A stretch of DNA of 64,000 bases from Alphaproteobacteria bacterium. GTDB lineage: Bacteria; Pseudomonadota; Alphaproteobacteria; UBA7985. The position numbers and the translations under genes are program-made. Where the stretch lies: positions 1,465,383-1,529,382 of the forward strand of contig OZ245893.1 of NCBI GenBank assembly GCA_965229645.1, in the 5' to 3' direction. The notes below the pieces were generated by a model. It was not told the DNA's origin. It did not search any database and worked only from the letters and a program-made list of their open reading frames with translations. Below, in pieces: positions 4,857-42,487 of this stretch (position 1 is the first letter of the stretch; each line of letters begins with the position of its first letter).

Positions 4857-6512
4857 ATGGCCATCGCTGGAACCCAATCGCCTTGGCGCGACCGCAGTCT
4901 GACCACACTGGCCTGGCTGGTGGGGCTTGCCCTGTTCTTCCCGATTTTGTGGCTCGGCCTATCGAGCCTCAAGACCGATTTGGAAGCGCAGTCCGCCACA
5001 CCCGAATTCTTGGTCACCTTTGATCGCGATTGGATCGAGGCGCGCAACCAAGCCCTCGAGCGGGGGGAGGACGTGCCCCTTAGGGACCGGCTGTTTTTCA
5101 TGCCGACCTTGGCCAACTATCAGGGCCTGACCGAGGCAGCGGACGGATTTTGGAAGTTTGTTTTCAACACCAGTTCCATCGCCATCATCGCGACGATTTT
5201 GTGCATGGTCATCGCCATTCCCGCCGCGTACTCCATGGCGTTTCGGCCCAGCAATTGGACCGCCGATATCTTGCTGTGGATGCTCTCGACCAAGATGTTG
5301 CCCGCGGTTGGGGTGATCATGCCGATTTTCTTCTTGTTTCAGGGTTTTACGGTCTCCTTGCCGCATTTGCAGTTTGAGGGGCAGGAAACCGTTGAGTTGC
5401 AGCTTGATGCGCCCGAGGGCCTCGACCTAGAGCTCGGGGCTTTGGACGCTGCCACGATCCTGATCGACAACCCCGACAAGACCCCGACCCTTACCCTACA
5501 AAGCACGGGCGCCATCGTCGAAGGCACCCGCCACAGCGGCTTCATCGTCTCGCTGTCGCCCCCCTTGGACGAAGATTTGGAGGTCACCTATAAAGCGTCG
5601 AGCCGGGCGGCGCGCGACGGCCAGATCGAGGCCCTGCCTGGCCGCGTTACCCTTCCCGCGGGCCAAAGCCATGTACTGATCCCCGTGGCCGCGGTTGGCG
5701 ATAGCGTTCGCGAAAGCCCCATGACGCTGCGCCTGACTTTGGAGGGCCTGTCGTCCAATGCCGCGCGCCTTGGCAAAGTGTTCGTTGCCTCGAGCAAAGT
5801 GGTCGATGCAGTGGAAACCCCGCAGGTCGCCATCACCCCGCTGAGCCACAGTGTCGAGGGCGCGGTCGCGGGCCGTGCGCGCGTCACGCTTTCCAAGCCC
5901 CAGCAAGTGCCGACCGACCTCACCTATACCGTCGGCGGGACGGCAGCCCCTGGCCAAGACTTTTCGGCCTTGTCGGGCAGCCTCACCCTGCCCGCGGGCG
6001 AGACCAGCACGGACATAGCCTTTGAGGCCCCATCGGGCGGGCGCTTTGAGGACTTTGCCGTGACGTGGCAGCCGACCAAGCTGGCCTTGCAAGACACGCG
6101 CGCGGGCATCATTCTGGTCTATGTGTTGATCAATATGCCGATTTTGATCTGGATTCTGTTCACCTACTTCAAAGAAATCCCGAAGGAAATTCTGGAGGCC
6201 AGTCGCATGGACGGGGCGAGCACCTGGTCGGAGTTGCGATCAATTATTCTGCCCTTGGCCTGGGGGGGAATCGCTGCAACGGCACTGCTTTCGATCATAT
6301 TTTGTTGGAACGAAGCCTACTGGTCGATCCGCCTCGCGTCCGAAGATGCTTTGGGGCTCGGAGCCATGGTCACCTCTAAGGAGGATCCGCGCGAACCGTT
6401 TTACGCCAAAATGTCGGCGGCCTCAATCGTCGCCATCGCCCCCATCATTATCATGGGCTGGTTCACGCAGAAGCAGTTGGTCCAGGGTTTGACCTTTGGC
6501 GCCGTCAAATAA
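4857..6512 (+). CDS. Sugar/polyol ABC transporter permease (MalG/UgpE type) with a large internal insertion
   Basis: 551 aa. Residues 1-163 and 409-551 (EAA loop KEILEASRMDGAS) together make a normal ~300-aa permease. About 245 extra residues lie between TM3 and TM4. Confidence 0.85.
   Translation: MAIAGTQSPWRDRSLTTLAWLVGLALFFPILWLGLSSLKTDLEAQSATPEFLVTFDRDWIEARNQALERGEDVPLRDRLFFMPTLANYQGLTEAADGFWKFVFNTSSIAIIATILCMVIAIPAAYSMAFRPSNWTADILLWMLSTKMLPAVGVIMPIFFLFQGFTVSLPHLQFEGQETVELQLDAPEGLDLELGALDAATILIDNPDKTPTLTLQSTGAIVEGTRHSGFIVSLSPPLDEDLEVTYKASSRAARDGQIEALPGRVTLPAGQSHVLIPVAAVGDSVRESPMTLRLTLEGLSSNAARLGKVFVASSKVVDAVETPQVAITPLSHSVEGAVAGRARVTLSKPQQVPTDLTYTVGGTAAPGQDFSALSGSLTLPAGETSTDIAFEAPSGGRFEDFAVTWQPTKLALQDTRAGIILVYVLINMPILIWILFTYFKEIPKEILEASRMDGASTWSELRSIILPLAWGGIAATALLSIIFCWNEAYWSIRLASEDALGLGAMVTSKEDPREPFYAKMSAASIVAIAPIIIMGWFTQKQLVQGLTFGAVK
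5346..6080 (+). other. Calx-beta-like tandem domain insertion inside the permease
   Basis: Two repeats with the Calx-beta signature: DLEVTYKASS...GRVTLPAGQSHVLIPV and DLTYTVGGTAAPGQDFSALSGSLTLPAGETSTDIAFEA. They replace the normally ~8-aa TM3-TM4 loop. Confidence 0.65.
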
Positions 6513-12381: not shown

Positions 12382-12678
12382 CTAATTCCCTTGGTCAACC
12401 TGTAGGCCGTCAAGGGCTAACCCATATGTCGTTAGAATTATGGTAAAGTGAGCTCCTTGACCAGAGTCAGGATCGATATCCACACCATTAGCCAGTCTGT
12501 TTATTTTTGCGGCTTCTTGGAACCAAAAACGGTGATATGCATCCTTGGCCCTAAGAGCCAGGAGGTCATATGCCAGATATAAGTTCTGACCTGATTTATA
12601 TATAAACTCTATATAATCAAGGTCTTTTTGGGTTAGATTTGTAATACTCTTTTTTAGTCTCCTGAATTTACTTTCCAA
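12382..12678 (-). CDS. 98-aa hypothetical protein
   Basis: Track ORF (TTG start). Overlaps the 3' end of the upstream gene by 25 nt. No recognisable domain. Confidence 0.4.
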   Translation of the reverse strand: MESKFRRLKKSITNLTQKDLDYIEFIYKSGQNLYLAYDLLALRAKDAYHRFWFQEAAKINRLANGVDIDPDSGQGAHFTIILTTYGLALDGLQVDQGN

Positions 12679-13493
12679 CTGCTTGATAGAATAAAGACAT
12701 CTTCGACCATTCTATCCATTAACTGCCTTCGGCCCACTGTTGGATCAAATAAGGGGAAACTCAAAAAATAGGCAAAATCCTCCTCTGGCAACCACACCCA
12801 ACCACTACACCCACGACCCTCAGCGCATCGCAAATTCTGATGATACAAAATACTTAGAACAGAGTCTGTGGTGTAGGTTAGCGTCCCATAACGACGAAAC
12901 CGCTGAGCTACATCGCTGGACTCACTGTTGGGTAGCCCTGGCCACAGTATGTGAAATCGAACAATAAACTCATTGGATGCGGGCCGGGGCAAACCAGCTT
13001 CACAAAGTTGCGGCGCAGGCTCAAACTTAGTGTTACGTTCAACATATCTCCGAGAGGGATGCCAAAATGAAAATTCTTTTGATCCCAAATCTCTGGTTTG
13101 AATACTCGGATCATATAGCCCAGTTGCAATATTAAAACCTGTAAAGTGAGATATTTTGGCAGATCTAGCCAAATGTTCCATAGGATCGGCAGCATCTATA
13201 GGGGGATCTAAATACCATGGGTTAAAGTAACCGTAAGGAATTTCAAACCATACCCCCTTATACCAGTATGGCGATAAGACATCCAACCTAGGCCCTGGCC
13301 TAACAGGTTCATTGGTTACGCTAGTCAAATACTGAAAAGTACGTTCAATTCGAGGACTATCTTCTGATGCCCAGTCGGGACAAGGCTCAGAATACGCCAT
13401 GTTCAAAGCCAGTGCCGCGTTCAGTACACTAGCAGCAATCATCCTAATGATCCTGGACTGGATATGAAAATTAGTCTGCATCAAAATACACAA
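12654..13493 (-). CDS. Secreted hypothetical protein (cargo of cassette head a)
   Basis: 279-codon ORF with TTG at 13493 and ATG alternatives at 13481 and 13442. Signal-like segment MIAASVLNAALALNMAYS. The mature part is W/Y/P-rich with no recognisable domain. Confidence 0.55.
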   Translation of the reverse strand: MCILMQTNFHIQSRIIRMIAASVLNAALALNMAYSEPCPDWASEDSPRIERTFQYLTSVTNEPVRPGPRLDVLSPYWYKGVWFEIPYGYFNPWYLDPPIDAADPMEHLARSAKISHFTGFNIATGLYDPSIQTRDLGSKEFSFWHPSRRYVERNTKFEPAPQLCEAGLPRPASNEFIVRFHILWPGLPNSESSDVAQRFRRYGTLTYTTDSVLSILYHQNLRCAEGRGCSGWVWLPEEDFAYFLSFPLFDPTVGRRQLMDRMVEDVFILSSSWKVNSGD

Positions 13494-13671
13494 CCATCAA
13501 CTTCTTAGGACGGTTGTGCCCAAATCTCGAGGCCTGACTACACACTAGCCCTGCGACTTGCCGCATAAGAACGATGGGCCAACGCAACACGCTTCACCCA
13601 CTCCCTCGAGTGTTCTGAAACCTATTCATACGCCTAAGCGTAAACCTTCGACTGGTAAGGTCAACGACATT

Positions 13672-13701
13672 TGTGTAACAAGAGGCCTCAGCATAAGTCA
13701 A
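13672..13701 (-). promoter_or_regulatory. Cassette head box a (sigma70-like TTGACT-N18-TACACA)
   Basis: One of six copies of a conserved 30-nt box. About 75 nt downstream lie GGGAG and the GTG (13590) of the conserved VLRWPIVL start. Confidence 0.35.
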
Positions 13702-13877
13702 GGGGTTGAAAAATAGTTGCAAAATGTAGTATCTAACTCGCTTGCGTGAAACTATAGGCCCGCTTCATAACTAGTTGATTTTTCTAATTTTCTTTGCGCT
13801 CGCGCAACCTTCCTAGCTATGTATGTATCATGAAGGTTCTTAAGGTCGGGTGCAATAAGTTCTGAGCCTGCCTTGCT

Positions 13878-14205
13878 TCAAGTTAAGAAGTGGTTTTCAT
13901 TGCGGCTTGTCCATCGACTCAACGGCAAGGTTGATTGCCTGCAAATCTCGCTGGGTCTCACCGCTCCCCATAAGCTGACCATCCGTCCCAATGTCATCCA
14001 GATTAGTAGAATCTGTGCCAGCAGATGCAATGACAAGGAGGTTGTCCTTTCCTGGATGGAATGAGCGCCTTGTAAGGCCCGTTTCACCTGTAAAAATTCC
14101 GCGGAGGGGGAATAGGCAGTCCACCATCTTTGAATCTAGGTATGTTTCAGAATGCAAAGACTCACAGTCGCTGGAGACATTTGGGCTATCTTCATAGCAT
14201 CTCAT
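13878..14205 (-). pseudogene. Lipase_3-like fragment fused to the last codons of the T1SS domain
   Basis: The N-part (LLVIASAGTDSTNLDD..QRDLQAINLAVESM) ends before the GHSLGG elbow. It is joined to ...NENHFLT* (13878-13898). This is an internal-deletion derivative of 16187-16918. Confidence 0.7.
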
Positions 14206-14314
14206 TTAGCTGCTTTTTTCTCTTGACACTTATGATCCAATTCTTCTTCATAAGACAAATTCGCCAAATCCGCAAACAAACCATACTCTTCCACCTCATA
14301 TTTATCAGCTCCGC

Positions 14315-14875
14315 TCACAACAGTTTCACCAATTCAAGTTCGTCTATTACTCCAATACGATCGGAATTTTCTATTACCCTCCAACTCCAATTTCCCTTGC
14401 GCTCATCTCCGAAATTAGGTGTGCGCCAAATTGAATTGCCATTTACATACACCGCAAATAGACCACTTAAGGTCGCCGTCTCCTGGAATATGGACGACTT
14501 TGAATTGAAACTAGGAAAAAGTGGAGGGAAAAAAAATGGATGAGGTCCTCTACGAGCTAAAGTGAATCTAGAATATCGTTCTGAACCAACTATGTCGTCT
14601 GAATCCACTCTAAAACATATCTGGTAAGGATAAATAGTTAAAAACTTCTTGATCCCACAATAATGATACCCAACACCTCGAGTTTCATAATCTTCCTGTG
14701 ACTTCTCTATCATCCAGTCAGTTTTTGCTAGCAATTCTTGGTCTAGTGTCCATGGAACAAAAATGTCTCTAGCTATCCAAGAAACAGCTTGGTCCCCTAT
14801 CGCCAAAGATGATAAGGTCAATCCCAAGATACGTCCCCAAGACCTTCTTTCCTGGTTAAACTCTATTGCGCTCAT
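14315..14875 (-). CDS. 186-aa single-pass membrane protein (cassette gene)
   Basis: N-terminal TM segment WGRILGLTLSSLAIGDQAVSWIA. ATGA overlap with the upstream gene. Paralogue at 16915-17475. Confidence 0.6.
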   Translation of the reverse strand: MSAIEFNQERRSWGRILGLTLSSLAIGDQAVSWIARDIFVPWTLDQELLAKTDWMIEKSQEDYETRGVGYHYCGIKKFLTIYPYQICFRVDSDDIVGSERYSRFTLARRGPHPFFFPPLFPSFNSKSSIFQETATLSGLFAVYVNGNSIWRTPNFGDERKGNWSWRVIENSDRIGVIDELELVKLL

Positions 14876-15087
14876 AGCAGCTCATCCAATTCAATTTGAG
14901 CTATACCTAATAACCCCACCATCTGATTATTGCCATAACTCTCAGGTTTAAAATCCCTCAATATTTCATCATAGACTTGTCGAGTTATTACAACTTTAGC
15001 GTCACCCAAAATTAGCATGTCAAGGCCACCTGGCGTCTGCATTACGCTATATGCAGCGCCTGTATCTAGAACATTAACTTGCGACAT
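14872..15087 (-). CDS. 71-aa protein equal to the stand-alone N-module (LDTGA module) of the 168-codon cassette gene
   Basis: VNVLDTGAAYSVMQTPGGLDML..VVITRQVYDEI..SYGNNQ aligns with GLVLDTGAAFSLVKTLGGLDIL..GVIIWQIYCEV..SYSENQ of 41127-41633. TAATG and ATGA couplings to the neighbouring genes. Confidence 0.55.
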   Translation of the reverse strand: MSQVNVLDTGAAYSVMQTPGGLDMLILGDAKVVITRQVYDEILRDFKPESYGNNQMVGLLGIAQIELDELL

Positions 15088-15533
15088 TATTCATCTCCTA
15101 CAACAGATGGATTCAGCATAATTTCGGCCTTTATCTTAACAAGATTCTTAGGAATAAGGCCAATGTATGTCTTATAGGCTAAGGAGTCGACTCCCTGAAG
15201 TGCAGATATTGTATCCCCCAAGTTATTGACTTCAGAATAATAGTTTTGAAAATTTCCTGTCTCTTCCAAGCATTCCCAGGGATACTCTTCGTCATCTATA
15301 GCTTCCATGTCGTTTTGACGAAGATAATTTTCTCTTTCGGTTCCTTTTCTTGCACAATCTAAGATATCTGGCTCATTGAGAACCCAAAAGAAATAGGGCA
15401 GAACATCATCAATATGCTTAGTAGCTCCTGCGCCATGCCACACTCGAATCTTGTATATTTCTTTATAGTGCGCTCGCCAATTTTTTGGCGGCTTAAATGC
15501 ACTTAAGCACTCTTCGTATGTATCAGGTAACAT
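15087..15533 (-). CDS. 148-aa acidic cytoplasmic protein (immunity-like partner of the 168-codon gene)
   Basis: Track ORF with AGGGGT upstream. It always lies directly after the 168-codon gene. Paralogues at 17579-18025 and 40660-41106, and a fragment at 36304-36414. Confidence 0.65.
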   Translation of the reverse strand: MLPDTYEECLSAFKPPKNWRAHYKEIYKIRVWHGAGATKHIDDVLPYFFWVLNEPDILDCARKGTERENYLRQNDMEAIDDEEYPWECLEETGNFQNYYSEVNNLGDTISALQGVDSLAYKTYIGLIPKNLVKIKAEIMLNPSVVGDE

Positions 15534-15553
15534 TTGTTAACTACCCCTCAAGG

Positions 15554-16060
15554 TCAATAAATCTGATAAGCCAGATCGGAATTCTCAAAAACAAATCCAG
15601 CCGAAGCACCAATAGCTTTTAAATTTCCTGGTCCACCATACTTCTCATGATCGGGTCAGTTCACCAAACCTCTATCATCCAAAACAATATTAATTGTATC
15701 GTTATTGCTTAAGCCAGATGCCTCTGGTTTGTTCACAACAATAGGTATAGATGTATCACCCAGCTGATTTCCAGATGCAAACATGTTATGGTGTGCTTGA
15801 GTCATGTCGAAACCTGAGTCGATAAAACTTGACGAATTGGAATCGCACCAATTCTTACGCCTAAGTTGATTATCACTATAACTTCCTGGCGACAAATCTT
15901 CCATGACTTCATGCTAAATCTACTGGGTTATTACAACTCTTGACCTACTAGTTGTCCGCATATCCGACCTGACCCAGGTCTTCTCTAAGCTAAATGCTGG
16001 GCCAGCATCCAAAACTAGCCTTGCATCTTCACGCATGAGAACAAAAGACCTACGCAGCAC
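15554..16060 (-). pseudogene. 168-codon cassette gene, copy 1 (nonsense-disrupted)
   Basis: Exactly 507 nt, like the intact copy. TAG at codons 47 and 49, and TGA replacing a Trp codon at 15656-15658. Track ORF 15656-15904 is its middle part. Confidence 0.75.
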
Positions 16061-16143
16061 GGCTCTCTCATCTCCTTTGAGTGTCTTCAGACCCAATTGA
16101 TCACCACTTCATAAGCGCCCTATCTGTTGGGGCCAACGGCATC

Positions 16144-16173
16144 TTTGTAACAAGAGACTTCAATATAAGTCAA
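16144..16173 (-). promoter_or_regulatory. Cassette head box b (TTGACT-N18-TACAAA)
   Basis: Same 30-nt box, starting 14 nt downstream of the stop of the 243-aa gene. AGGAG plus GTG 16060 follow. Confidence 0.35.
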
Positions 16174-16186
16174 AGAATTGAACACT

Positions 16187-16918
16187 TCAAGTTAAGAAGT
16201 GGTTTTCGTTGAGGCCGTGTCCCTTACCTAAAATACGGACTTGGAAGTCGCTGCCTTTGATCCATATCTCTGTCTCATCATTGGTCTCGGTGATGATCAG
16301 GTCGGCGAAGCTGACGCCCAGCTCTGATAGATCAATACGATCTTCTGCGCTGTCGAAGTCCCCGATAACGTCGATCCACTCAGCAATACTATCATCAAAC
16401 GACTCACCCAAACGTTGAGACACGACCTGGGACAGAAAGCCACCCAGAGAATGCCCTGTAATGACAATCTCAAGATCACTGCCTGCTCTACCATCTGCAG
16501 ACAGCATTTTCATGGACTCAACAGCAAAGTTGATTGCCTGCAAATCTTGCTGGGTCGCACCAAAGTTCCAAAGCTGGGCATCCGTCACAAGATCATCCAG
16601 ATCAGTGGGATCTGTGCCAGCAAATGCAATGACAAGGCGATTGTCATTTTCTGAATAGAAAGAGTGCCCTGTGAAACCCGTTCCACCTCTAAGCGCTCCA
16701 TAGGCGGGGAATAGCCAATCCATGTACTTTGAATCTAGGTCTGTATCAAAATGCAAAGATTCATAATCGGTAGAGACATTTTGGCTATTTGCGTAACGTC
16801 TCATATAATTATTTAGCTTCTTTTGAAACTCCACATCCGACTTTTCTTCGTAGGACAAATTCGCTAAGTCCGCGAACAAGCCATACTCTTCTGCACTATA
16901 TTTGTCAGGTTCGCTCAT
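16187..16918 (-). CDS. Chimeric protein: truncated class-3 lipase/alpha-beta hydrolase N-part fused to the T1SS C-terminal domain
   Basis: Residues 1-170 are Lipase_3-like with the elbow ITGHSLGG, but no downstream Asp/His region. By eye, residues 171-243 (16187-16393) are the same nucleotide sequence as 18679-18885, the 3' end of the giant gene. Confidence 0.75.
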   Translation of the reverse strand: MSEPDKYSAEEYGLFADLANLSYEEKSDVEFQKKLNNYMRRYANSQNVSTDYESLHFDTDLDSKYMDWLFPAYGALRGGTGFTGHSFYSENDNRLVIAFAGTDPTDLDDLVTDAQLWNFGATQQDLQAINFAVESMKMLSADGRAGSDLEIVITGHSLGGFLSQVVSQRLGESFDDSIAEWIDVIGDFDSAEDRIDLSELGVSFADLIITETNDETEIWIKGSDFQVRILGKGHGLNENHFLT

Positions 16919-17475
16919 AACAATTTCTCCAATTCAAGTTCATCTATTACCCTAATACGATCAGAATTTTCCATTACCCTCCAACTCCAATTTTCATTGC
17001 GCTCTTCTCCGAAATCAAGTGTGCGCCAAATTGAATTTCCATTTACATACACCGCAAATCGATCACTTAAGAGCGCCGTTTCCTGGAATATGGACGATCT
17101 TGAATTAAAACTAGGAAAAAGTGGAGGGAAAAAAAATGGATAAGGTCCCCTGTGAGCTAAAGTGTATCTGGAGTATCTTTCTGAGCCAACTATATCGTCC
17201 GAACTTGCTCTAAAACATATCTGATGAGGATAAATAATCAGAAATCTCTTGATTTCACAATAATAATACCTAAAATCACGAGCCTCATAATCTTCCTGTG
17301 ATTTCTCTATCATCCAATCAGCTTTTGCCAACACTTCTTGATTGAGCGTCCATGGAACAAAAATGTCTCGCGCTATCCAAGTAACAGCTTGGTCCGCTAT
17401 CGTCAAAAAAACTAGCGACAATCCCAAGATTTGCCCCCAAGGTCTTCTCCTTTGGTCAATTTCTATCATGCCCAT
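16915..17475 (-). CDS. 186-aa single-pass membrane protein, copy 2
   Basis: Paralogue of 14315-14875. ATGA overlaps with both neighbours. Confidence 0.6.
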   Translation of the reverse strand: MGMIEIDQRRRPWGQILGLSLVFLTIADQAVTWIARDIFVPWTLNQEVLAKADWMIEKSQEDYEARDFRYYYCEIKRFLIIYPHQICFRASSDDIVGSERYSRYTLAHRGPYPFFFPPLFPSFNSRSSIFQETALLSDRFAVYVNGNSIWRTLDFGEERNENWSWRVMENSDRIRVIDELELEKLL

Positions 17476-17579
17476 AGCAACTTGTCCATCTCAAGTTCAG
17501 CTATGATTGGAATCTCACCATCTGGCGTCTGCATTAAGCTATATGCAGCGCCTGTATCTAGAACATTAACTTGCGACAT
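17466..17579 (-). pseudogene. Internal-deletion (37-codon) version of the 71-aa gene
   Basis: MSQVNVLDTGAAYSLMQTPDGEIPIIAELEMDKLLWA*. Keeps the TAATG and ATGA couplings. Confidence 0.5.
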
Positions 17580-18025
17580 TATTCATCTCCTACAACAGAT
17601 GGATTCAGCATAATTCTGGCCCTTATCTTAGCAAGATTCTTAGGAATAAGGCCGATGTATGTCTTATAGGCTAAGGACTCGACTCCCTGAAGCGCAGATA
17701 TTGTATTGCCCAAGTTATTGACCTCAGAATAATAGTTTTGAAACCTTCCTGTCTCTTCCAAGCATTCCCAGGGATACTCTTCGTCATCTATAGGTTCCAT
17801 GTCGTTTTGACGAAGATAGTTTCCTCGTTCGGTTCCTTTTCTTGCACAATCTAAGATATCGGGTTCATTGAGAACCCAAAAGAAATAGGGTAGAACATCA
17901 TCAATATGCTTGGTAGTTTCTTCGCCACGCCACACTCGAATTCTATATATTTCTTCATAGTGCGCTCGCCAATTTTTTGGCGACTTAAAAGCACTTAAGC
18001 ACTCTTCGTATGTATCACATAACAT
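17579..18025 (-). CDS. 148-aa immunity-like protein, copy 2
   Basis: Paralogue of 15087-15533, roughly 90% aa identity by eye. Confidence 0.65.
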   Translation of the reverse strand: MLCDTYEECLSAFKSPKNWRAHYEEIYRIRVWRGEETTKHIDDVLPYFFWVLNEPDILDCARKGTERGNYLRQNDMEPIDDEEYPWECLEETGRFQNYYSEVNNLGNTISALQGVESLAYKTYIGLIPKNLAKIRARIMLNPSVVGDE

Positions 18026-18045
18026 TTGTTAACTACCCCTTAAGG

Positions 18046-18552
18046 TCAATAAATCTGATAAGCCAGATCGGAATTCTCAAAAACAAATCCAATCGAAGCA
18101 CCACTAGCTGTTAAGTTCCCTGGTCCGCCATACTTCTTATGATCGGGCCAGTTCACCAAACCTCTATCATCCGAAACAATATTGATTGTATCTGTAGTAC
18201 TTAAGCCAAATGCCTCTGGTTTTTTCACAACAATAGATATAGATGTATCGCCCAGCTGATTTCCAGATGCAAACCTGTTATGGTGCGCTTGATTTATGTC
18301 CAAATTTGAATCGATAACACTTGGCTAATTGGGGTCATACCAATTCTTAAGCCTAAGTTGATTATCACTATAATTTCCTGGCGACAAATCTTCCATGACT
18401 TCATACTAAATCTACTGGGTTATTACAACTCTTGACCCGCTAGCTGTCCACATATCCGACCTGACCCAGGCCTTCTCTAAGCTAAATGCTGGGCCAGCAT
18501 CCAAAACTAGCCTTGCATCTTCACGCATGAGAACAAAAGACCTACGCAGCAC
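18046..18552 (-). pseudogene. 168-codon cassette gene, copy 2 (nonsense-disrupted)
   Basis: 507 nt. TAG at codons 47 and 49, plus a third TAG (..WYDPN*PSVID..). Track ORF 18046-18303 is the remaining 3' part. Confidence 0.75.
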
Positions 18553-18635
18553 GGCTACCTCATCTCCTCTGAGTGTTTTCAGACCCAATTGATCGCCACT
18601 TCATAAGCGCCCTATCTGTTGGGGTCAACGACATC

Positions 18636-18665
18636 TTTGTAACAAGAAACTTCAGTATAAGTCAA
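18636..18665 (-). promoter_or_regulatory. Cassette head box c (TTGACT-N18-TACAAA)
   Basis: Same 30-nt box, 14 nt downstream of the giant gene stop. Confidence 0.35.
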
Positions 18666-18678
18666 AGAATTGAACACT

Positions 18679-36414: not shown

Positions 36415-36434
36415 TTGTTTACCACCCCTCAAAG

Positions 36435-36941
36435 TCAATAAATCTGATAAGCCAGATCGGAATTCTCAAAAATAAATCCAATCGAAGCACCACTAGCTGT
36501 TAAGTTCCCTGGTCCACCATACTTATAATGATCGGGCCAGTTCACCAGACCTCTATCATCCGAAACAATATTGATTGTATCTGTATTACTTAAGCCAAAT
36601 GCCTCTGGTTTTTTTACAATAATAGATATAGATGTATCGCCCAGCTGATTTCCAGATGCAAACCTGTTATGGTGTGCTTGAGTCATATCAAAACCTGGAT
36701 CGATAACACTTGACGAATTGGAATCACACCAATTCTTACGCCTAAGTTGATTATCACTATAATTTCCTGGCGACAAATCTTCCATGACTTCATACTAAGT
36801 CTACTGGGTTATTACAACTCTTGACCCACTAGTTGTCCGCATATCCAACCCGATCGGGATCTTCACCAAGCTAATTGCTGGGCCAGCATCTAAAACTAGC
36901 CTTGCATCTTCACGCATGAGACCAAAAGACCTACGCAGCAC
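36435..36941 (-). pseudogene. 168-codon cassette gene, copy 3 (two amber codons; 116-aa ORF intact from Met53)
   Basis: 507 nt with TAG at codons 47 and 49. Track ORF 36435-36785 is uninterrupted. Confidence 0.7.
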
Positions 36942-37000
36942 GGCTCACTCATCTCCCCTGAGTGGTTTGAAACCCATTTATTCATTAATTGGTAAGCGCC

Positions 37001-37357
37001 CTATCTGTTAGGGTCAATGGCATCTTTGTAACAAGAGACTTCAGCACAAGTCATGGCAATGTCTAAACCACTAGTTCGAATCCACAACCTAGCCCCTCCC
37101 GCACTAGGGAAGAGATCAATAAATTCATCTGAATTGTTTTTGAAGTGCTCCAATATCGCATCTTTCTCGGCCAGAGTATATGCGTTTATACCTGAAGCAT
37201 CTATTGGGCCACCCGCACCTGCAATTACTGACTGATCTACACCATTGTACAGCATCGTTGTGCCAGGCGGCCTACCAGAAAATGCACCATTTGCTATAGC
37301 TAACTCTAGGTCTTGTAGAGTATTTATTTGACTCCAATCTATAACGAAATTTTCCAA
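37001..37357 (-). CDS. Orphan paralogue of the giant-gene N-terminus (118 aa)
   Basis: TTG start with GGAGG 10 nt upstream. TTMLYNGV/NSMFYSGI, IDASGINAY/RDASGIYAN and DEFIDLF/AEYMDRA align with the reconstructed giant N-terminus. The 3' end runs into degenerate head box e (37025-37054). Confidence 0.55.
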   Translation of the reverse strand: MENFVIDWSQINTLQDLELAIANGAFSGRPPGTTMLYNGVDQSVIAGAGGPIDASGINAYTLAEKDAILEHFKNNSDEFIDLFPSAGGARLWIRTSGLDIAMTCAEVSCYKDAIDPNR

Positions 37358-37991: not shown

Positions 37992-38149
37992 TTTGCAATC
38001 TCCGTTGCTCTACTTACCGTTAACGATACACGAAATCAATGCAAAATATTAGTTTTCCTAATTTTTTTTCTGCGCTCGACCAACTTTCGTGATTATGTAT
38101 CATGAAGGCTCTTAAGGTCGGGTGCCATAGGTTTTGATCCTGCCTTGCT

Positions 38150-38647
38150 CTAAGTTAAGAAGTGGTTTTCGTTGAGGCCGTGTCCCTTACTTAAAATACG
38201 GACTTGGAAGTCGCTGCCTTTGATCCATATCTCTGTCTCATCATTGGTCTCGGTGATGATCAGGTCGGCGAAGCTGACGCCCAGCTCTGATAGATCGATA
38301 CGATCTTCTGCGCTGTCGAAATCCCCAATAACGTCGATCCACTCAGCAATACTATCGTCAAGGGCATTAAACTTGAACGTATCTGCGCCCGCGCCACCGT
38401 AAAGAAGATCTGCGCCCGCGCCCCCAATCAGCAAATCGTTGCTGTCGCCGCCGAAGAGCTGGTCGGCGCCCAGGCCACCATAGAGCTCGTCCGCCCCTTG
38501 ATCACCATGGAGAATATCATTCTTGGTGCCGCCATTTAAGGTATCATTGCCCTCGCCACCACGAAGCAAGTCTTTGCCTGCATCGCCATGGAGAAGGTCA
38601 TCCTCTGCGCCGCCGTCCAGCATGTCTTCGCCGTGGCCACCTTTGAG
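38150..38647 (-). pseudogene. Orphan 3' fragment of the giant RTX gene (last 166 codons incl. T1SS domain)
   Basis: Near-identical to 18679-19176, with two aa differences seen. The 5' side is cut by IS1380. Confidence 0.85.
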
Positions 38648-40470
38648 CCTGCCTTATTCATGAAGATGGCAAATTTTGGAACGAGATCGGGTTTAGGCGG
38701 GGTTTTGAGGCAGGATGCGTTGGAGATTTTGAGCATCGAACGATTTGTTGAGGGCCCTGGGGGCACTACGGCGTAAATTTGGGAACAGGATCGAGTATCT
38801 GGGGTGTTTTTTGCTTCTTTGGCGCAGAGGTGATGGGTCGCCAGATCATCGAGGAGGGCGGCAAGGTTTTCAGGACAGTCTATTTTGCGCTCTGATTTTA
38901 TGGTGGTGGCCATGCCATGCGGTTGATGGCTGGCCATATCAGGCTCCAAAAGTGCTGTGCACTTTGGGCAACGATTAGGATTGCGCGGCGAGCATGGATG
39001 GTTATGCGGGCGCCGATTGAGAGCACGCGTTCACGATAGCGGCGCAAGCTCCAGCCAGTGCGCGTAGCGGTTTCCATACACCGTCGACCAGCGTGCATCA
39101 GACCATAAGCCAGCAGATTGAGTAACAGAAGGGCTTCGTTACGGGCGAAGGCCTCAGCCTCAGCCTTGGTCTCAACCTCAGCCTTGGTCTCAGCCTCAGC
39201 TTCGGGCTTGGATGGGGAGGACGGGGAGGAGCCTTTGGTGTCCTTCCTGGTCCGCACTGTCGATGACAGGGTCGGGCCCAGCACGTCCATCAACTCACCG
39301 AAGCTGTTTTCGGCTGCGCCACGTTTGCGGTAAAGCGCCAGCAGGTCCTGGGCAGGCATATGATCTTGTGTGAAGTTGGTGATCAGCCAGAAGCGATCCA
39401 GCAACAACTGGCCTGGCCGCTCGACGACAACCAGAACAACCCGCCGCGCCTTCGACCATGGCCCCGCCTGATAATCCATCTCGTGAAACTGCTCCCCGCC
39501 ATCTTCTGGTGGGCATCCTTCTGGACGATTCATATTTGGGGCCGCTAGTCGGTCTAGGACTGAGTTGCTGCCTAGCCGCGCCACGTAGGAGATGCCGCGC
39601 TCCTCAAGTCCGCCCAGCACCTTCTCACACGGAAAGCCCGCATCCATGCGCACCGTCGCTACCTGACACAGCTTCGTCTTCGCCCGATCAATCAGCTCCA
39701 GAATGAAGCTGAGCGCTCCGTCGGCGGTGTGGACACTGCCCTTGCGAAGCCGTGCGTCCAGCAAATCTCCAGTCTCGGCAATGCCAGCAATGATCGGGTG
39801 ATACATGCGTTGACGATAGTGCCCGTTCCAAGCTGAACCAGGCTGCTTGCCATGCACCTCGATGGGCAGACTGTCCACATCAAGGGTCAGATATCGAGGG
39901 CGGTGTCCCCGACGCTCGGCCCGCAGGCGACGGCCAGTCAGTTCCATCACGCTCTCGCGTAAGACCTGAAGGTTGGATTCGCTGGAGAGCAAATCAAGCA
40001 ACCGCGACAAGGTAGGTTGCGAGGGCAGATGGCGCTCTTGGTCCAGAGGCGTCGTGCTGCGCCTGCACGAAGTTGACAGCCGAAACGCCGGATCATAGCG
40101 TAGCGCATCAGCATCGTCTTGATCTCGCCAACCCTGACCCAAAAGCAGAACCCTCGTTCGCAAGAGTTCAGGCAAAGAGTAGATCACCTGGTGGGGACAG
40201 CGCGTATCCTCAAGCCGAGCCATCAGCCACGAGATGATACCTGAGCGCTCCATCAACTCGCGCTGCACAATGGCACCGCCGTCTCCGCTCAGATGCTCGG
40301 CCCGGCTCTCAACAGAAAGACTCCGGTTGAATGATGTTGTGAATAGAGGTAGTGTTTCACCCATGGCGTGGCTCGGTCCTGTTTATCGCGTCTATCGCTA
40401 AAGACTTGATTCTACAGTGTTTTCCGCGTCACGCCATACAAATCAACCGATCAGACGCGAATAAGAGGGG
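38648..40470 (-). mobile_element. IS1380-family insertion sequence
   Basis: 1823 bp. IRs cctgccttattc / cccctcttattc (rc). 5-bp duplication TTGAG at 38643-38647 and 40471-40475. High G+C, unlike its surroundings. Confidence 0.8.
38898..40364 (-). CDS. IS1380-family DDE transposase
   Basis: 488 aa. The overall pattern matches the IS1380/IS4-like group (VRMDAGF, RGAAENSFGELM). Confidence 0.8.
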   Translation of the reverse strand: MGETLPLFTTSFNRSLSVESRAEHLSGDGGAIVQRELMERSGIISWLMARLEDTRCPHQVIYSLPELLRTRVLLLGQGWRDQDDADALRYDPAFRLSTSCRRSTTPLDQERHLPSQPTLSRLLDLLSSESNLQVLRESVMELTGRRLRAERRGHRPRYLTLDVDSLPIEVHGKQPGSAWNGHYRQRMYHPIIAGIAETGDLLDARLRKGSVHTADGALSFILELIDRAKTKLCQVATVRMDAGFPCEKVLGGLEERGISYVARLGSNSVLDRLAAPNMNRPEGCPPEDGGEQFHEMDYQAGPWSKARRVVLVVVERPGQLLLDRFWLITNFTQDHMPAQDLLALYRKRGAAENSFGELMDVLGPTLSSTVRTRKDTKGSSPSSPSKPEAEAETKAEVETKAEAEAFARNEALLLLNLLAYGLMHAGRRCMETATRTGWSLRRYRERVLSIGARITIHARRAILIVAQSAQHFWSLIWPAINRMAWPPP

Positions 40471-40475
40471 TTGAG

Positions 40476-40660
40476 GGTATCTGCACCGTGCTGACCACAA
40501 ATCTGGTCGTTTCCCCGACCACCGCCAATGATGTCACCATTGGTGCCGCCATCAATATAGTCATCGCCAGCACCACCGTCGAGCAAATCGGTTCAAGGCC
40601 ACCTGGCGTCTGCATTAAACTATATTCAGCGCCTGTATCTAGAACATTAACTTGCGACAT
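40476..40660 (-). pseudogene. RTX-repeat fragment fused out of frame to the first 23 codons of a 71-aa-type gene
   Basis: 40476-40590 continues the orphan RTX fragment across the IS. At ~40590 it joins MSQVNVLDTGAEYSLMQTPGGLE (ATG 40660). Confidence 0.65.
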
Positions 40661-41106
40661 TATTCATCTCCTACAACAGATGTATTCAGCATAATTCTGG
40701 CCCTTATCTTAACAAGATTCTTAGGAATAAGGCCAATGTATGTCTTATAGGCTAAGGAGTCGACTCCCTGAAGCGCAGATATTGTATTGCCCAAGTTATT
40801 GACTTCAGAATAATAGTTTTGAAAATTTCCTGTCTCTCGTAAGCATTCCCAGGGGTATTCTTCGTCGTCTATAGGTTCCATGTCGTTTTGACGAAGATAA
40901 TTATCTCGCTCGGTTCCTTTTCTTGCACAATCTAAGATGTCTGGCTCATTGAGAGCCCAAAAGAAATAGGGTAGAACATCATCAATGTGCTTGGTAGTTT
41001 CTTCGCCACACCACACTCGAATTCTATATATTTCTTTATAGTGCGCTCGCCAATTTTTTGGCGGCTTAAAAGCACTTAAGCACTCTTCGTATGTATCAGG
41101 TAACAT
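40660..41106 (-). CDS. 148-aa immunity-like protein, copy 4
   Basis: Paralogue of 15087-15533. Follows the only intact 168-codon gene. Confidence 0.65.
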   Translation of the reverse strand: MLPDTYEECLSAFKPPKNWRAHYKEIYRIRVWCGEETTKHIDDVLPYFFWALNEPDILDCARKGTERDNYLRQNDMEPIDDEEYPWECLRETGNFQNYYSEVNNLGNTISALQGVDSLAYKTYIGLIPKNLVKIRARIMLNTSVVGDE

Positions 41107-41126
41107 TTGTTAACCACCCCTCAAAG

Positions 41127-41633
41127 TCAATAAATCTGATAAGCCAGATCGGAATTCTCAAAAACAAATCCAATCGAAGCGCCACCAGTTTGTAAATTTC
41201 CTGGTCCACCATACTTCTGATGAACGAGCCAGGTCACCAAACCTCTATCATTCGAAACAATATTGATTGTATCTGTATTACTTAAGCTAAATGCCTCTGG
41301 CTTTTTCACAACAATAGATATAGATGTATCGCCCAGTTGATTTCCAGATGCAAACCTGTTATGGTTTGCTTGAGTCATGTCGAAACCTGCGTCGATAAAA
41401 CTTGACGAATTGGGGTCATAACAATTCCTAAATCTAAGTTGATTCTCACTATAACTTCCCGAAACCGAATCCTCCATGACTTCACAGTAAATCTGCCAGA
41501 TGATTACACCTCCGGACCCACCAGATGTCAGTATATCCAACCCGCCAAGGGTTTTCACTAAGCTAAACGCCGCACCAGTATCCAAAACGAGTCCTGCTTC
41601 TTGGGGCTTGAGAACGATGGGCCAACGCAACAC
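41127..41633 (-). CDS. 168-aa cassette protein, only uninterrupted copy (candidate small toxin/effector)
   Basis: GTG 41633 with AGGAG upstream. The N-module is VLDTGAAFSLVKTLGGLDIL..GGVIIWQIYCEV. The C-part is ANHNRFASGNQLGDTS..GGPGNL..IGFVFENSDLAYQIY. No family I can name. Confidence 0.6.
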   Translation of the reverse strand: MLRWPIVLKPQEAGLVLDTGAAFSLVKTLGGLDILTSGGSGGVIIWQIYCEVMEDSVSGSYSENQLRFRNCYDPNSSSFIDAGFDMTQANHNRFASGNQLGDTSISIVVKKPEAFSLSNTDTINIVSNDRGLVTWLVHQKYGGPGNLQTGGASIGFVFENSDLAYQIY

Positions 41634-41715
41634 GGTTCACCCACTCCTCTGAGCGTCTTGAAACCTCTTCATTCACCAATTGCGTAAGATCCTAACTGGT
41701 GAAGTCAACGACATT

Positions 41716-41745
41716 TTTGTAACGGGAAACCTCAGCATAAGTCAA
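41716..41745 (-). promoter_or_regulatory. Cassette head box f (TTGACT-N18-TACAAA)
   Basis: rc = ttgacttatgctgaggtttcccgttacaaa, about 80 nt upstream of GTG 41633. Confidence 0.35.
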
Positions 41746-42100
41746 AGAATTGAGAACTGGTTATAAATGGAGGATCTGTTTCGGGCGCATAGCACCATAG
41801 ACCTACCTCATAGTTGGTTCATTTTTCTGACTTCCTTTGTGTTCGCTCAATTTTTTTTGGTTATGTATGTATCATACGAACTCTAAAAGTCCTCAGAAAG
41901 CAACTTCGATAGTTTTACTGCTTCCCTGGAATCAGATTATCTGTTTTTGAGTAACTTGTTTTAGAAAGAACCATGACATAACAAAGATATCTATAGTGAT
42001 AGTCAACTGCAGAAACCGCCAGTTACCCTTGTTTTGGGGATCTGACATATCAAGGTGCTTCGTGCGAGGCGCCGACAAAGAGATCGTAAAATCAACCACC

Positions 42101-42487
42101 TATACCAACGGTCATAAAAGTTGACACTTTAATGACCGTTTCATGTCTGGCGATAGAAGTGCTTCTTGTTTCGGTTTTTTGGGTGGCGGTGTCACCTCGC
42201 TCGCTATGCTCGCTCAGCCCGACCGCTGAACGGGGCCTTCGCTGATACCCCGAGGCGCTTTCTTAGCTTGTCTTGGGGCCACGCATTTGGAGCGCGGGCG
42301 TTCCCTGCGCCCTTCGGGCTTGGAGCCCAACTGTTTGGAGCGCGGGCGTTCCCTGCGCCCTTCGGGCTTGGAGCCCAACTGTTTGGAGCGCGGGCGTTCC
42401 CTGCGCCCTTCGGGCTTGGAGCCCGCTTGGGGGTCGCGGCCCTTGTGCCAGCGATCATACGCGCCCTTCTCAATCGCCGCTGGCATT
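42101..42487 (+). repeat. RE repeat, long variant, at the right island junction
   Basis: Head hairpin tataccaacggtcataaaagt-tgac-actttaatgaccgtt at 42101. Tail gccagcg...cgctggc ends at 42487. Contains the 48-bp tandem array. Confidence 0.75.
42286..42424 (+). repeat. 48-bp tandem repeat x2.9 inside RE
   Basis: The unit tttggagcgcgggcgttccctgcgcccttcgggcttggagcccaactg is repeated head to tail with no differences seen. Confidence 0.9.

What the first reader, a model, noticed from the sequence alone, without database searches (positions are those of the whole stretch)
13878..18678. Tandem ~2.5-kb cassette units that each end in the same T1SS secretion-domain sequence; lipase::secretion-signal chimeras
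The stop codons at 13878, 16187 and 18679 all terminate ...NENHFLT*. The period 16187 to 18679 is 2492 bp. Each unit, read on the minus strand, runs head box, 168-codon gene, 148-aa gene, 71-aa gene, 186-aa TM gene, then lipase.

In unit 2 the Lipase_3-like ORF keeps the GHSLGG elbow but lacks the Asp/His half. At ..ESF|DDSIAEW.. it switches into 207 nt that, by eye, match the giant gene's 3' end exactly. In unit 1 the lipase is reduced further and joined to only the last 6 codons.

The shared 3' block looks like the homology arm through which cassettes have been exchanged or deleted. That fits recombination at a constant secretion-signal exon.
Basis: seen in the sequence. Interest (0 to 1): 0.65.

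Follow-up and report, generated by a model that had tools for sequence, protein, structure and literature searches.

The report
Tandem gene cassettes ending in truncated lipase
Downstream of a broken giant RTX gene, an uncultured alphaproteobacterium carries tandem 2.5-kb copies of a five-gene cassette, gained and lost by ordinary recombination between near-identical repeats, and the "lipase with a secretion tail" is a truncated by-product, not evidence of a new cassette-switching system.

Summary
Four minus-strand ORFs end in ...NENHFLT* (stops at 13878, 16187, 18679 and also 38150), and the unit period is 2492 bp. The 243-aa ORF joins the first 174 residues of a class-3 lipase to the giant RTX gene's last 69 residues.

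The details need correcting:
- The shared block is 210 nt with 4 synonymous mismatches, not an exact match.
- Identity does not stop at the stop codon. It runs on about 1.16 kb, so the block is simply the start of the repeat unit.
- In unit 1 the NENHFLT codons are out of frame with the lipase remnant.
- Most cassette genes are broken, and the giant RTX gene is split by an IS110 element.

A related strain carries three units. The extra unit is flanked by ~570-bp repeats (secretion block plus head box) that are ~99% identical. This shows unit gain or loss by homologous recombination.

Full-length relatives are lipase–Hint proteins. The chimera lacks the catalytic acid and histidine.

Nothing supports programmed exchange of effector domains. 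Recombination at the block only adds or removes whole units, and lipase is the only partner seen.

The array sits in a low-GC, IS-ridden island. The mechanism is ordinary; the cassette genes belong to no known family. Interest is low to moderate.

The parts
18679..25353 (-). 3' piece (2224 aa) of a giant RTX gene. Its ATG and first ~10 codons lie in the end of an inserted IS110. The last 210 nt (18679-18890) form the shared secretion block 'S'.
   Evidence: Pfam HemolysinCabind in 49 stretches and Peptidase_M10_C. Frame analysis. Junction alignment.
25320..26440 (-). IS110-family insertion that splits the giant RTX gene.
   Evidence: DEDD_Tnp_IS110 and Transposase_20. The flanking RTX ORFs end and start in IS sequence.
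26441..29917 (-). 5' piece (1158 aa) of the RTX gene, with a Hint module at residues 446-489. It abuts another IS at 29923.
   Evidence: The Hint is 30% identical to the Hint of the lipase-Hint relatives.
18540..18678 (-). Head box of unit 2. It is a conserved non-coding leader (core TTGACTTAT..TTGTTACAA..GTCGTTGAC, then GGAG) directly after the RTX stop codon. It is probably a promoter and 5' UTR.
   Evidence: Six-copy alignment. A promoter-like site at 18682-18654. No Rfam family and only a weak consensus fold.
18046..18588 (-). Unit 2 copy of the 168-codon gene, broken into 58-aa and 85-aa ORFs by in-frame stops.
17579..18025 (-). Unit 2 148-aa gene, intact, with no known family.
   Evidence: dN/dS 0.25-0.35 between copies. 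No Pfam, NCBIfam or PADLOC hit.
17466..17579 (-). Unit 2 remnant (37 codons) of the gene that is 71 aa in unit 1. It carries an internal deletion of about 100 nt.
   Evidence: Alignment of the units. A 37-aa gene is called at the equivalent place in L001.
16915..17475 (-). Unit 2 186-aa gene, with an N-terminal hydrophobic segment. Its stop overlaps the lipase start (ATGA).
   Evidence: dN/dS 0.23-0.37.
16187..16918 (-). 243-aa chimera. Lipase residues 1-174 (GHSLGG at 155-160) are joined at 16398/16399 to the 69-residue RTX C-terminal block S.
16048..16186 (-). Head box of unit 1.
15656..16096 (-). Unit 1 copy of the 168-codon gene, broken into 58-aa and 82-aa ORFs.
15087..15533 (-). Unit 1 148-aa gene.
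14872..15087 (-). Unit 1 71-aa gene. Its N-terminus is paralogous to that of the 168-aa protein (VLDTGAA[FY]S..VVIT.Q.Y.E).
14315..14875 (-). Unit 1 186-aa gene.
13897..14312 (-). Unit 1 lipase pseudogene. It has GTG in place of ATG, a frameshift and an early stop. It is truncated at about codon 136 and its frame ends ..DKPQ*.
13779..13906 (-). Remnant of the S block (last ~27 nt, NENHFLT*, out of frame with the lipase). It is followed by a ~100-nt 3' flank of the type found after the third RTX end at 38150.
   Evidence: 13779-13906 matches 38053-38178 at 83%. Alignment.
13544..13847 (-). Long-form head box that precedes the 279-aa gene (12654-13493).
   Evidence: A 279-like gene precedes the 186-like gene and lipase in the distant relative L083.
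40593..41914 (-). Copy 3. It contains a head box, the only intact 168-aa gene (41127-41633), a 148-aa gene (40660-41106) and the first ~22 codons of the 71-aa-type gene.
38150..40590 (-). RTX 3' fragment of copy 3. Segments 40471-40590 and 38150-38647 match 19172-19291 and 18681-19176 at 92-98%. The fragment is joined out of frame to the 71-aa-type gene at 40593. An IS (38648-40470) splits it, with an apparent 5-bp target duplication.
   Evidence: The joint is also seen in read contigs.
36304..37053 (-). Fourth head box plus a broken 168-codon gene, cut off by an IS (35111-36307).
32008..32521 (-). Fifth, divergent head box with an N-terminal fragment of the 168-type gene. A different 228-aa ORF follows (31282-31968).

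Best explanation
The region is a tandem array of a ~2.5-kb, five-gene cassette: head box, 168-codon gene, 148, 71-type, 186, lipase. It lies just downstream of a giant RTX gene, inside a ~32-kb low-GC, IS-ridden island of an uncultured alphaproteobacterium.

The first ~0.55 kb of every unit is the RTX C-terminal secretion block (S, 210 nt) plus the head box. This segment is a long, nearly identical direct repeat. Ordinary RecA-type unequal crossover and gene conversion between these repeats add, remove and homogenise whole units.

The lipase::S ORF is a scar of this history, not a designed product. The lipase was truncated 12 residues after its GHSLGG nucleophile and fused to S. Two routes are possible:
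- (favoured, ~60:40) an internal deletion in an ancestral lipase-...-RTX-S gene;
- a microhomology-mediated tandem-duplication junction (TTGA).

The fused form was then copied along with the unit. Unit 1 and copy 3 carry two further, independent and out-of-frame deletions that also end in RTX/S sequence. The chimera lacks the acid and histidine and about half of the alpha/beta fold, so it cannot be an active lipase. Much of the locus is decaying.

Shown: the repeat anatomy, the junctions, the unit-number difference between strains, homogenisation of S plus head box, the missing catalytic half, and the gene disruptions.

Inferred: the recombination mechanism, the order of events, and loss of function.
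For: Repeat anatomy and junctions:
- Homology starts at 16398/18890 and runs through the stop codon to 15026/17518.

Unit-number difference:
- Related contig L001 (97.9-99.7% identical to the window) has three units. Its extra 2.3-kb unit (250-aa gene, 186, a second 243-aa chimera) is bracketed by S plus head-box repeats that are 96-100% identical per 100-nt window.

Homogenisation:
- S differs at 0/207 sites between paralogues whose lipase parts differ at 43/522. Identity elsewhere in the unit is a mosaic of 69-100%.

Loss of the catalytic half:
- Full-length relatives (486-556 aa) are lipase + Hint. The chimera stops before their conserved NAPG, YS[ND]P..W, IH..GD and GH motifs.
- In the AF2 model, residues 1-171 are confident and match class-3 lipases and feruloyl esterase A. 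S is not confidently packed, with pLDDT below 60.

Independent deletions and decay:
- The unit 1 pseudogene is joined out of frame to an S remnant plus an RTX-type flank.
- Copy 3 is joined out of frame at 40593.
- The relative's copy 3 has yet another 131-bp deletion.
- The giant gene is split by IS110.
- The 168-codon gene is broken in 3 of 4 copies.

Setting and assembly:
- The island is 41-55% GC against ~60% in the flanks, with several IS elements.
- Read contigs from four runs span the chimera junction at single-copy depth.
Against: - The 243-aa ORF is intact in all three copies seen.
- Its lipase part shows fewer amino-acid changes than neutral simulation predicts (18-19 against ~31 expected; dN/dS 0.41).
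- Its start is translationally coupled to the 186-aa gene.
- The 148-aa and 186-aa genes are under purifying selection (dN/dS 0.23-0.37).

So part of the cassette, and possibly the chimera, may still function. The order of events (deletion or duplication junction) is not resolved. No intact ancestor of the form lipase-RTX-S was found. Expression and secretion were not testable.
Confidence: 0.7

Rival explanations
1. The 243-aa lipase::S protein is a functional, selected T1SS substrate. It would be a non-catalytic, or differently catalytic, lipase-like module carrying a minimal C-terminal export signal. The cassette would have been amplified adaptively as an effector operon, with the 186-aa membrane protein and/or the 148-aa protein acting as partners or immunity factors.
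For: - The ORF is intact in the window and twice in L001, always with the same junction.
- dN/dS is 0.41, with significantly fewer amino-acid changes than neutral.
- Its start overlaps the 186-aa gene (ATGA).
- RTX 3' ends are strongly conserved (dN/dS 0.06).
- About 60 C-terminal residues suffice as a T1SS signal in RTX proteins (PMC3034196), and S is 69 residues.
- The 148 and 186 genes are under purifying selection.
Against: - There are no acid/His motifs and only about half of the alpha/beta-hydrolase fold.
- The ORF has no GGxGxD repeat.
- S is modelled with low confidence and does not complete the fold.
- Conservation near the junction is explained by a recent conversion or crossover tract, with 97-100% identity from about codon 75 through the head box. 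The selection signal may therefore predate the fusion.
- The neighbouring genes and the giant RTX gene are disrupted.
- There are no T1SS ABC or MFP genes in the 64 kb.
- The lipase is also truncated in unit 1, L002 and L083.
Confidence: 0.2
2. This is the first reader's model: a programmed cassette-exchange system. S would be a constant 'secretion-signal exon' through which alternative effector cassettes are swapped onto or off a secreted protein. That would make it the T1SS mirror image of cdiA-CT, tpsC, mafB-CT or rhs orphan cassettes.
For: - S is shared by the giant gene, the chimera, a third RTX end and a remnant.
- Small ORFs lie between successive S-ended genes.
- Unit number varies between strains.
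- Known orphan-cassette systems have the same overall look (PMC5472700).
Against: - Homology is not confined to S.
- S copies are direct repeats downstream of the main gene, so recombination deletes or duplicates units and leaves the giant gene's body unchanged.
- Lipase is the only alternative N-terminal partner seen, and it is truncated.
- Two of the three junctions are out of frame.
- A search with S alone found no other proteins carrying it (low sensitivity).
- No toxin or immunity family was recognised.
Confidence: 0.07
3. Assembly artefact: the chimera and the tandem units result from mis-joined or collapsed repeats.
For: Repeats of 0.5-1.4 kb at 93-100% identity are hard to assemble from short reads. 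The read contigs break at the repeats.
Against: - An independent assembly from another sample contains the same junction twice.
- Unitigs from four runs cross 16364-16761/17137 at single-copy depth.
- Unit 1 and unit 2 differ by 7-20%, so they are distinguishable.
Confidence: 0.03

Closest known systems
Tandem segmental duplication and amplification by unequal homologous recombination, with chimeric junction ORFs and gene conversion between copies
   Same: The copies are head-to-tail units. A long near-identical direct repeat sits at the unit boundaries. Unit number differs between close strains. Conversion tracts are mosaic, and a fusion ORF sits at a junction.
   Different: The repeat boundary happens to fall inside the secretion domain of an RTX gene, so a junction ORF inherits a T1SS-type C-terminus. 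The cassette genes belong to no described family.
Polymorphic frpA/frpC-like RTX gene family of Neisseria meningitidis
   Same: These are T1SS/RTX genes that share large identical portions. They differ by insertions or deletions in the N-terminal part and in the number of RTX blocks (PMC3034196; PMC5472700).
   Different: Here the variants are short truncated derivatives in a tandem array with intervening small genes. There is no sequence relationship to Frp proteins, and none was tested.
Orphan toxin cassettes of polymorphic toxin systems (cdiA-CT/cdiI, tpsC, mafB-CT, rhs-CT)
   Same: Truncated gene fragments lie downstream of a large secreted-protein gene and share a homology block with it. 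Small ORFs are interspersed and cassette number varies (PMC5472700).
   Different: In those systems the shared block is at the 5' end of each cassette, just before a variable 3' toxin domain, and recombination swaps the toxin tip. Here the shared block is the 3' end, the variable part is 5', only one partner exists, and recombination cannot remodel the main gene.
Family I.3 RTX lipases (Pseudomonas TliA/PML, Serratia LipA)
   Same: A lipase carries a GHSLGG-type nucleophile and a C-terminal T1SS signal (PMC3034196).
   Different: Those enzymes have a complete catalytic domain and a block of RTX repeats. The present lipase part belongs to the class-3 / Mbeg1-like group, whose full-length relatives carry a Hint domain. 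No PDB lipase sequence was matched.
Lipase (Mbeg1-like/Lipase_3) - Hint domain proteins found in metagenomes (P0007, P0008, P0011, P0013, P0014)
   Same: They are 45-50% identical over residues 78-170 and share the TGHSLGG[FY]LAQ elbow.
   Different: They continue with the rest of the hydrolase domain, a Hint module and a conserved C-terminal region. They have no RTX C-terminus and lack the 75-residue N-terminal extension of the window protein.

Membership tests
Class 3 lipase (Pfam Lipase_3, alpha/beta hydrolase) | Nucleophile elbow G-x-S-x-G on a strand-turn-helix | tested here: met
   GHSLGG at residues 155-160. It is invariant across 40 homologues. The model shows strand 150-155 followed by helix 158-171.
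Class 3 lipase (Pfam Lipase_3, alpha/beta hydrolase) | Catalytic acid and histidine on the C-terminal strands of the fold | tested here: not met
   The lipase sequence stops 12 residues after the elbow. The conserved NAPG, YS[ND]P..W, IH..GD and GH motifs of full-length relatives are absent.
Class 3 lipase (Pfam Lipase_3, alpha/beta hydrolase) | Score above Pfam's gathering threshold, and fold similarity | tested here: inconclusive
   The Lipase_3 score is 18.8 bits against a cut-off of 22. Foldseek's top hits are class-3 lipases and feruloyl esterase A (E 7e-5, TM ~0.4), because only half the fold is present.
RTX / type I secretion substrate | Uncleaved C-terminal secretion signal within about the last 60 residues | tested here: inconclusive
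   The last 69 residues are identical to those of the giant RTX protein. They give a weak Peptidase_M10_C match. Signal function cannot be read from sequence.
RTX / type I secretion substrate | Glycine- and aspartate-rich nonapeptide (GGxGxD) repeats upstream of the signal | tested here: not met
   The 243-aa ORF has none. The giant gene has 49 HemolysinCabind stretches.
RTX / type I secretion substrate | Linked ABC transporter and membrane fusion protein genes | tested here: not met
   None was found among the ORFs scanned across the 64-kb window. They could lie elsewhere in the genome.
RTX / type I secretion substrate | Demonstrated export | not testable with these tools
   No RNA or protein data are available. 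The runs found appear to be DNA, and their kind is not recorded.
Polymorphic toxin system with orphan cassettes | Cassettes share a 5' homology block with the main gene, placed before a variable 3' toxin domain | tested here: not met
   The shared block is at the 3' end and extends into downstream genes.
Polymorphic toxin system with orphan cassettes | Diversity of toxin domains, each followed by a cognate immunity gene | tested here: not met
   Only a truncated lipase is fused to S. The small ORFs match no toxin, immunity or defence family.
Tandem array maintained by unequal homologous recombination | Head-to-tail repeats with long, highly identical boundary segments | tested here: met
   The period is 2492 bp. 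S plus head box is 94-100% identical among all units.
Tandem array maintained by unequal homologous recombination | Unit-number polymorphism among close relatives, with breakpoints in the repeats | tested here: met
   L001 has three units where the window has two. The extra unit is bracketed by the ~570-bp repeats.
Tandem array maintained by unequal homologous recombination | Concerted evolution (conversion tracts) between copies | tested here: met
   0/207 differences in S against 43/522 in the adjoining lipase part. The identity profile is a mosaic.

The most novel reading that the evidence does not exclude
The S block plus head box might be a portable 'export tail plus promoter' module. On this reading it tags whatever gene precedes it for type I secretion and, at the same time, drives gain and loss of effector cassettes. 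That would be a T1SS counterpart of orphan-cassette polymorphic effector systems, with reversed polarity. The lipase-like 243-aa protein would be an exported, non-hydrolytic effector, and the 186-aa membrane protein and/or the 148-aa protein would be its partner or immunity factor.
Probability: 0.1. Interest if true: 0.7.

Novelty: new member of a known kind. Interest (0 to 1): 0.3.

Why it matters
This is a clean natural example of how a repeat boundary inside a secretion domain can create small ORFs that inherit a T1SS-type C-terminus. In principle that is a route to new secreted proteins. It also shows how RTX loci in IS-rich islands are reshaped by unequal recombination, conversion and deletion.

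For annotation, it warns against calling the 243-aa ORF a secreted lipase. It has no acid or histidine.

The cassette proteins (168, 148, 71, 186, 250, 279 aa) have no detectable family. They were found in only three metagenome assemblies, so they mark a lineage-restricted accessory module of unknown role. If the chimera proved to be exported and useful, the case would become considerably more interesting.

Tried and rejected
- **Rfam and consensus fold of the head box.** Rfam gave no family over the whole window. The consensus fold was weak at -2.6 kcal/mol. A structured RNA is not supported.
- **Family searches for the cassette proteins.** Pfam (E up to 10), NCBIfam and PADLOC found nothing for the 168, 148, 71, 186, 250, 159, 228 and 279-aa proteins. 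A PDB sequence search with the 168-aa protein gave nothing meaningful.
- **AF2 of the 168-aa protein.** The model built from a paralogue alignment failed (pLDDT 29). The motif-level idea that it is PIN-like or retropepsin-like (VLDTGA...) stays untested.
- **Word-indexed protein searches.** Only the same-lineage contigs were found for the lipase and the 168-aa protein. The search with S alone returned nothing and evidently missed P0001, so it is of limited value.
- **Scans with the 186 family.** Neither genome contigs nor metagenome contigs gave a relative. The chimera found nothing in metagenome contigs.
- **Exact-sequence look-ups.** The window's own 243-aa and 148-aa proteins are not on record.
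- **RNA runs.** None were found that could be told apart from the DNA runs.
- **Family I.3 lipase membership.** Considered and rejected. There was no PDB sequence hit, and the fold hits are fungal class-3 lipases.
- **tRNA or integrase at the island borders.** No tRNA genes are present.

Full report
**Observation.**

All the relevant genes lie on the minus strand. ORFs with stops at 13878, 16187 and 18679 end in NENHFLT, and a fourth ends at 38150. Direct-repeat families are spaced 2492 bp apart.

A self-BLAST of 12-43 kb gives these matches:

| Segment | Matches | Identity |
|---|---|---|
| 15026-16398 | 17518-18890 | 93.4% |
| 13912-14904 | 16511-17504 | 80.5% |
| 40593-41753 | further partial copy of the unit | – |
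| 36304-37053 | further partial copy of the unit | – |
| 38152-38647 | 18681-19176 (third RTX 3' end) | 97.8% |

Anchoring on the stop codons shows where the 243-aa ORF and the giant gene become alike. It is at 16398/18890 (..TTGAyGATAGT..). Upstream there is no similarity. Downstream there are 4 mismatches in 210 nt, all synonymous, and the identity carries straight on through the stop codon into the intergenic 'head box'. The shared 3' block, however, is simply the first part of the repeat unit and not an isolated arm.

**Anatomy of the units.**

The consensus cassette has this order:
- a head box, a conserved leader of about 140-300 nt ending in GGAG and a GTG start;
- a 168-codon gene;
- a 148-aa gene;
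- a gene that is 71 aa in unit 1;
- a 186-aa gene with an N-terminal hydrophobic segment;
- the lipase.

The last four genes overlap or abut (TAATG, ATGA, ATGA), as in an operon.

Few copies are intact:
- The 168-codon gene is whole only at 41127-41633. In units 1 and 2 and in the 37-kb copy, the same in-frame stops split it.
- Unit 2 has an internal deletion of about 100 nt in the 71-aa-type gene.
- The unit 1 lipase has GTG for ATG, a frameshift and an early stop. It is cut at about codon 136 and joined to the last ~27 nt of the RTX gene, but out of frame. The lipase frame ends ..DKPQ* at 13897.
- That S remnant is followed by ~100 nt that resemble the flank downstream of the third RTX end (83%).
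- Copy 3 joins codon ~22 of the 71-aa-type gene, out of frame, to a 613-nt RTX 3' fragment, which is itself split by an IS.
- The giant RTX gene is split by an IS110-family element. The ATG of the '2224-aa ORF' lies in the IS end, and the 1158-aa ORF upstream is the gene's 5' part, with a Hint module.

**Setting.**

The array lies in an island of about 32 kb (roughly 10.1-42.6 kb). The island is 41-55% GC, and the cassettes themselves 41-43%. The flanks are ~60% GC and housekeeping: sugar ABC transport and mannitol dehydrogenase on one side, and polyprenyl synthase, leuA, mreBCD, PBP2 and rodA on the other.

The island holds at least five IS elements or fragments. It has no tRNA, no Rfam family, and no T1SS transporter genes.

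LeuA is at most 66-69% identical to proteins from alphaproteobacterial MAGs of the Kiloniellales and Rhodospirillales type. The host is therefore an alphaproteobacterium with no close sequenced relative.

**The lipase part.**

A full HMMER scan of 1.8 billion representative proteins with residues 1-174 gave 167 hits. The nearest full-length relatives are 486-556 aa and 45-50% identical over residues 78-170. They consist of an N-terminal Mbeg1-like/Lipase_3 domain followed by a Hint domain.

In the alignment the window protein follows them through TGHSLGGFL.Q and then breaks off. It stops just before the conserved VV.NAPG, YS[ND]P..W, IH..GD and GH motifs that must carry the acid and histidine.

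An AF2 model built on 40 homologues is confident for residues 1-171 and poor for the 69-residue tail. Foldseek places the confident part with fungal class-3 lipases and feruloyl esterase A, at TM ~0.4 because only half the fold is there.

The chimera keeps the nucleophile but cannot be a complete hydrolase. It is not a family I.3 RTX lipase.

**Relatives and dynamics.**

The only close relatives come from ENA metagenome assemblies.

*L001* (9.2 kb; 97.9-99.7% identical to the window) carries three units. Between the window's unit 2 and unit 1 it has an extra 2.3-kb unit. That unit holds a 250-aa gene (the C-terminal half of the 168-type protein fused to a 186-like C-terminal domain), another 186-aa gene, and a second 243-aa chimera with exactly the same GESF|DDSIAEW junction.

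The extra unit is bracketed by S plus head-box repeats that are 96-100% identical per 100-nt window over about 570 bp. One homologous crossover interconverts the two-unit and three-unit forms.

Between the two L001 chimeras the S block has 0/207 differences, while the adjoining lipase part has 43/522. Identity along the unit is a mosaic of 69-100%, which is the signature of conversion and crossover tracts.

*L002*, from the same sample, shows a differently arranged copy 3, with yet another 131-bp deletion removing the S remnant.

*L083*, a more distant contig, has two 279-like genes, a 183-aa homologue of the 186-aa protein (41% identity), and a lipase gene that stops after 60 codons.

Contigs from four sequencing runs cross the chimera junction at single-copy depth, so the chimera is not an assembly artefact.

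**Selection.**

The 148-aa and 186-aa genes have dN/dS of 0.23-0.37. They show far fewer amino-acid changes than neutral simulations predict, so they are, or recently were, real genes.

The lipase part of the two L001 chimeras has dN/dS 0.41, which is also below neutral. However, the region from about codon 75 through S and the head box is 97-100% identical between them. The junction may therefore have been spread recently onto an older, diverged 5' part. The signal does not prove that the chimera itself is under selection.

**Mechanism.**

The best-supported reading is ordinary unequal homologous recombination and gene conversion between long direct repeats, superimposed on repeated deletions in a decaying island.

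The origin of the fusion itself is unresolved, with two candidate routes.

- *Internal deletion (favoured).* The ancestor would be a lipase-...-RTX-S gene. Three points support this:
  - The unit 1 lipase is also followed by an S remnant with an RTX-type 3' flank.
  - Three independent deletion junctions (16398, ~13906, 40593) all land in RTX/S sequence.
  - Giant proteins with an N-terminal lipase of this type followed by RTX repeats do exist (P0145).
- *Duplication junction.* A single microhomology-mediated (TTGA) tandem duplication, running from inside the giant gene's 3' end to lipase codon 174, would also create exactly one chimeric junction ORF.

**Comparison with known systems.**

The arrangement looks superficially like the orphan cassettes of polymorphic toxin systems such as tpsC and mafB-CT (PMC5472700), but it fails their defining features:
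- The shared block is at the 3' end, not the 5' end.
- There is only one partner, and it is truncated.
- Recombination between downstream direct repeats cannot change the main gene.

It is closer to the polymorphic frpC-like RTX family. Members of that family share identical portions and differ by indels (PMC3034196). It is also closer to generic tandem amplification.

RTX proteins carry a C-terminal signal of about 60 residues (PMC3034196). It therefore remains possible that the 69-residue tail makes the chimera exportable. That is the residual novel reading, at about 10%.

**Verdict.**

The mechanism is a known kind, found in an uncharacterised lineage, with orphan gene families. Interest is low to moderate.

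Noticed in passing
41127-41633 (-), 14872-15087 (-), 15920-16096 (-), 18412-18588 (-), 36801-36941 (-): The 168-aa protein and the 71-aa protein share an N-terminal motif, [LV]LD[TA]G[AP]A[FY]S[LV]...VVIT.Q[IV]Y.E[VI]. The 168-aa protein also has GDTSISIVV and IVS[ND]DRGLV further on. By eye this pattern resembles a PIN-like (D..E..D..D) or DTGA-type domain. No HMM library matched and the AF2 model failed (pLDDT 29).
   Followed up: partly
C-termini of 16915-17475, 14315-14875, 14872-15087 (-); L001:2013-2765; L083:3121-3672: Several otherwise different cassette proteins end in the same motif, ..(I/V)(D/A)ELE(L/M)(E/D)KLL (FKLEKVL in L083), just before the overlapping start of the next gene. 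The C-terminal ~70 residues of the L001 250-aa protein resemble those of the 186-aa protein. Gene boundaries may be recurrent recombination or deletion points.
   Followed up: partly
26441-29917 (-), residues ~434-560: The 5' piece of the giant RTX gene contains a Hint (bacterial intein-like) module. It is 30% identical (E 1e-9) to the Hint of the lipase-Hint proteins that are the chimera's nearest full-length relatives.
   Followed up: partly
29923-31119 (+) and 35111-36307 (-): Two inverted copies (97% identical) of a DDE_Tnp_1 / DDE_Tnp_1_assoc IS bracket a ~4-kb stretch that holds IS66 and rve fragments, a head box and a 228-aa ORF. The layout is like a composite transposon. In the relative L002 the same IS sits inside the 168-codon gene of copy 3.
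   Followed up: partly
38648-40470: An IS with a 488-aa DDE_Tnp_1_4 transposase is inserted in the third RTX 3' fragment. The flanks overlap by 5 nt when mapped onto the giant gene (19172-19176), which suggests a 5-bp target-site duplication.
   Followed up: no
328-526, 42101-42173, 52886-53084, 55681-55921: A family of intergenic repeats of about 70-200 nt lies in the high-GC core regions. Each has a TTGACA-containing box, and 43-nt units have inverted ends TTATACCAGCGA....TCGCCGCTGGTA. They look like REP or MITE elements.
   Followed up: no
42286-42429: Three tandem copies of a 48-nt unit (two identical, one 94%) lie at the right-hand edge of the low-GC island.
   Followed up: no
12654-13493 (-); L083:2221-3054 and 1779-2228: A 279-aa protein with an N-terminal hydrophobic leader and a conserved motif (CP[DE]WA..D.P[RK]IERTF) has no known family. 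It recurs next to the 186-like gene and lipase in a distant relative. It seems to belong to the same accessory module.
   Followed up: partly
4857-6512 (+): An ABC-transport permease (BPD_transp_1) of 551 aa carries an apparent Calx-beta-like insertion (weak Pfam hit). This is unusual for this kind of protein.
   Followed up: no
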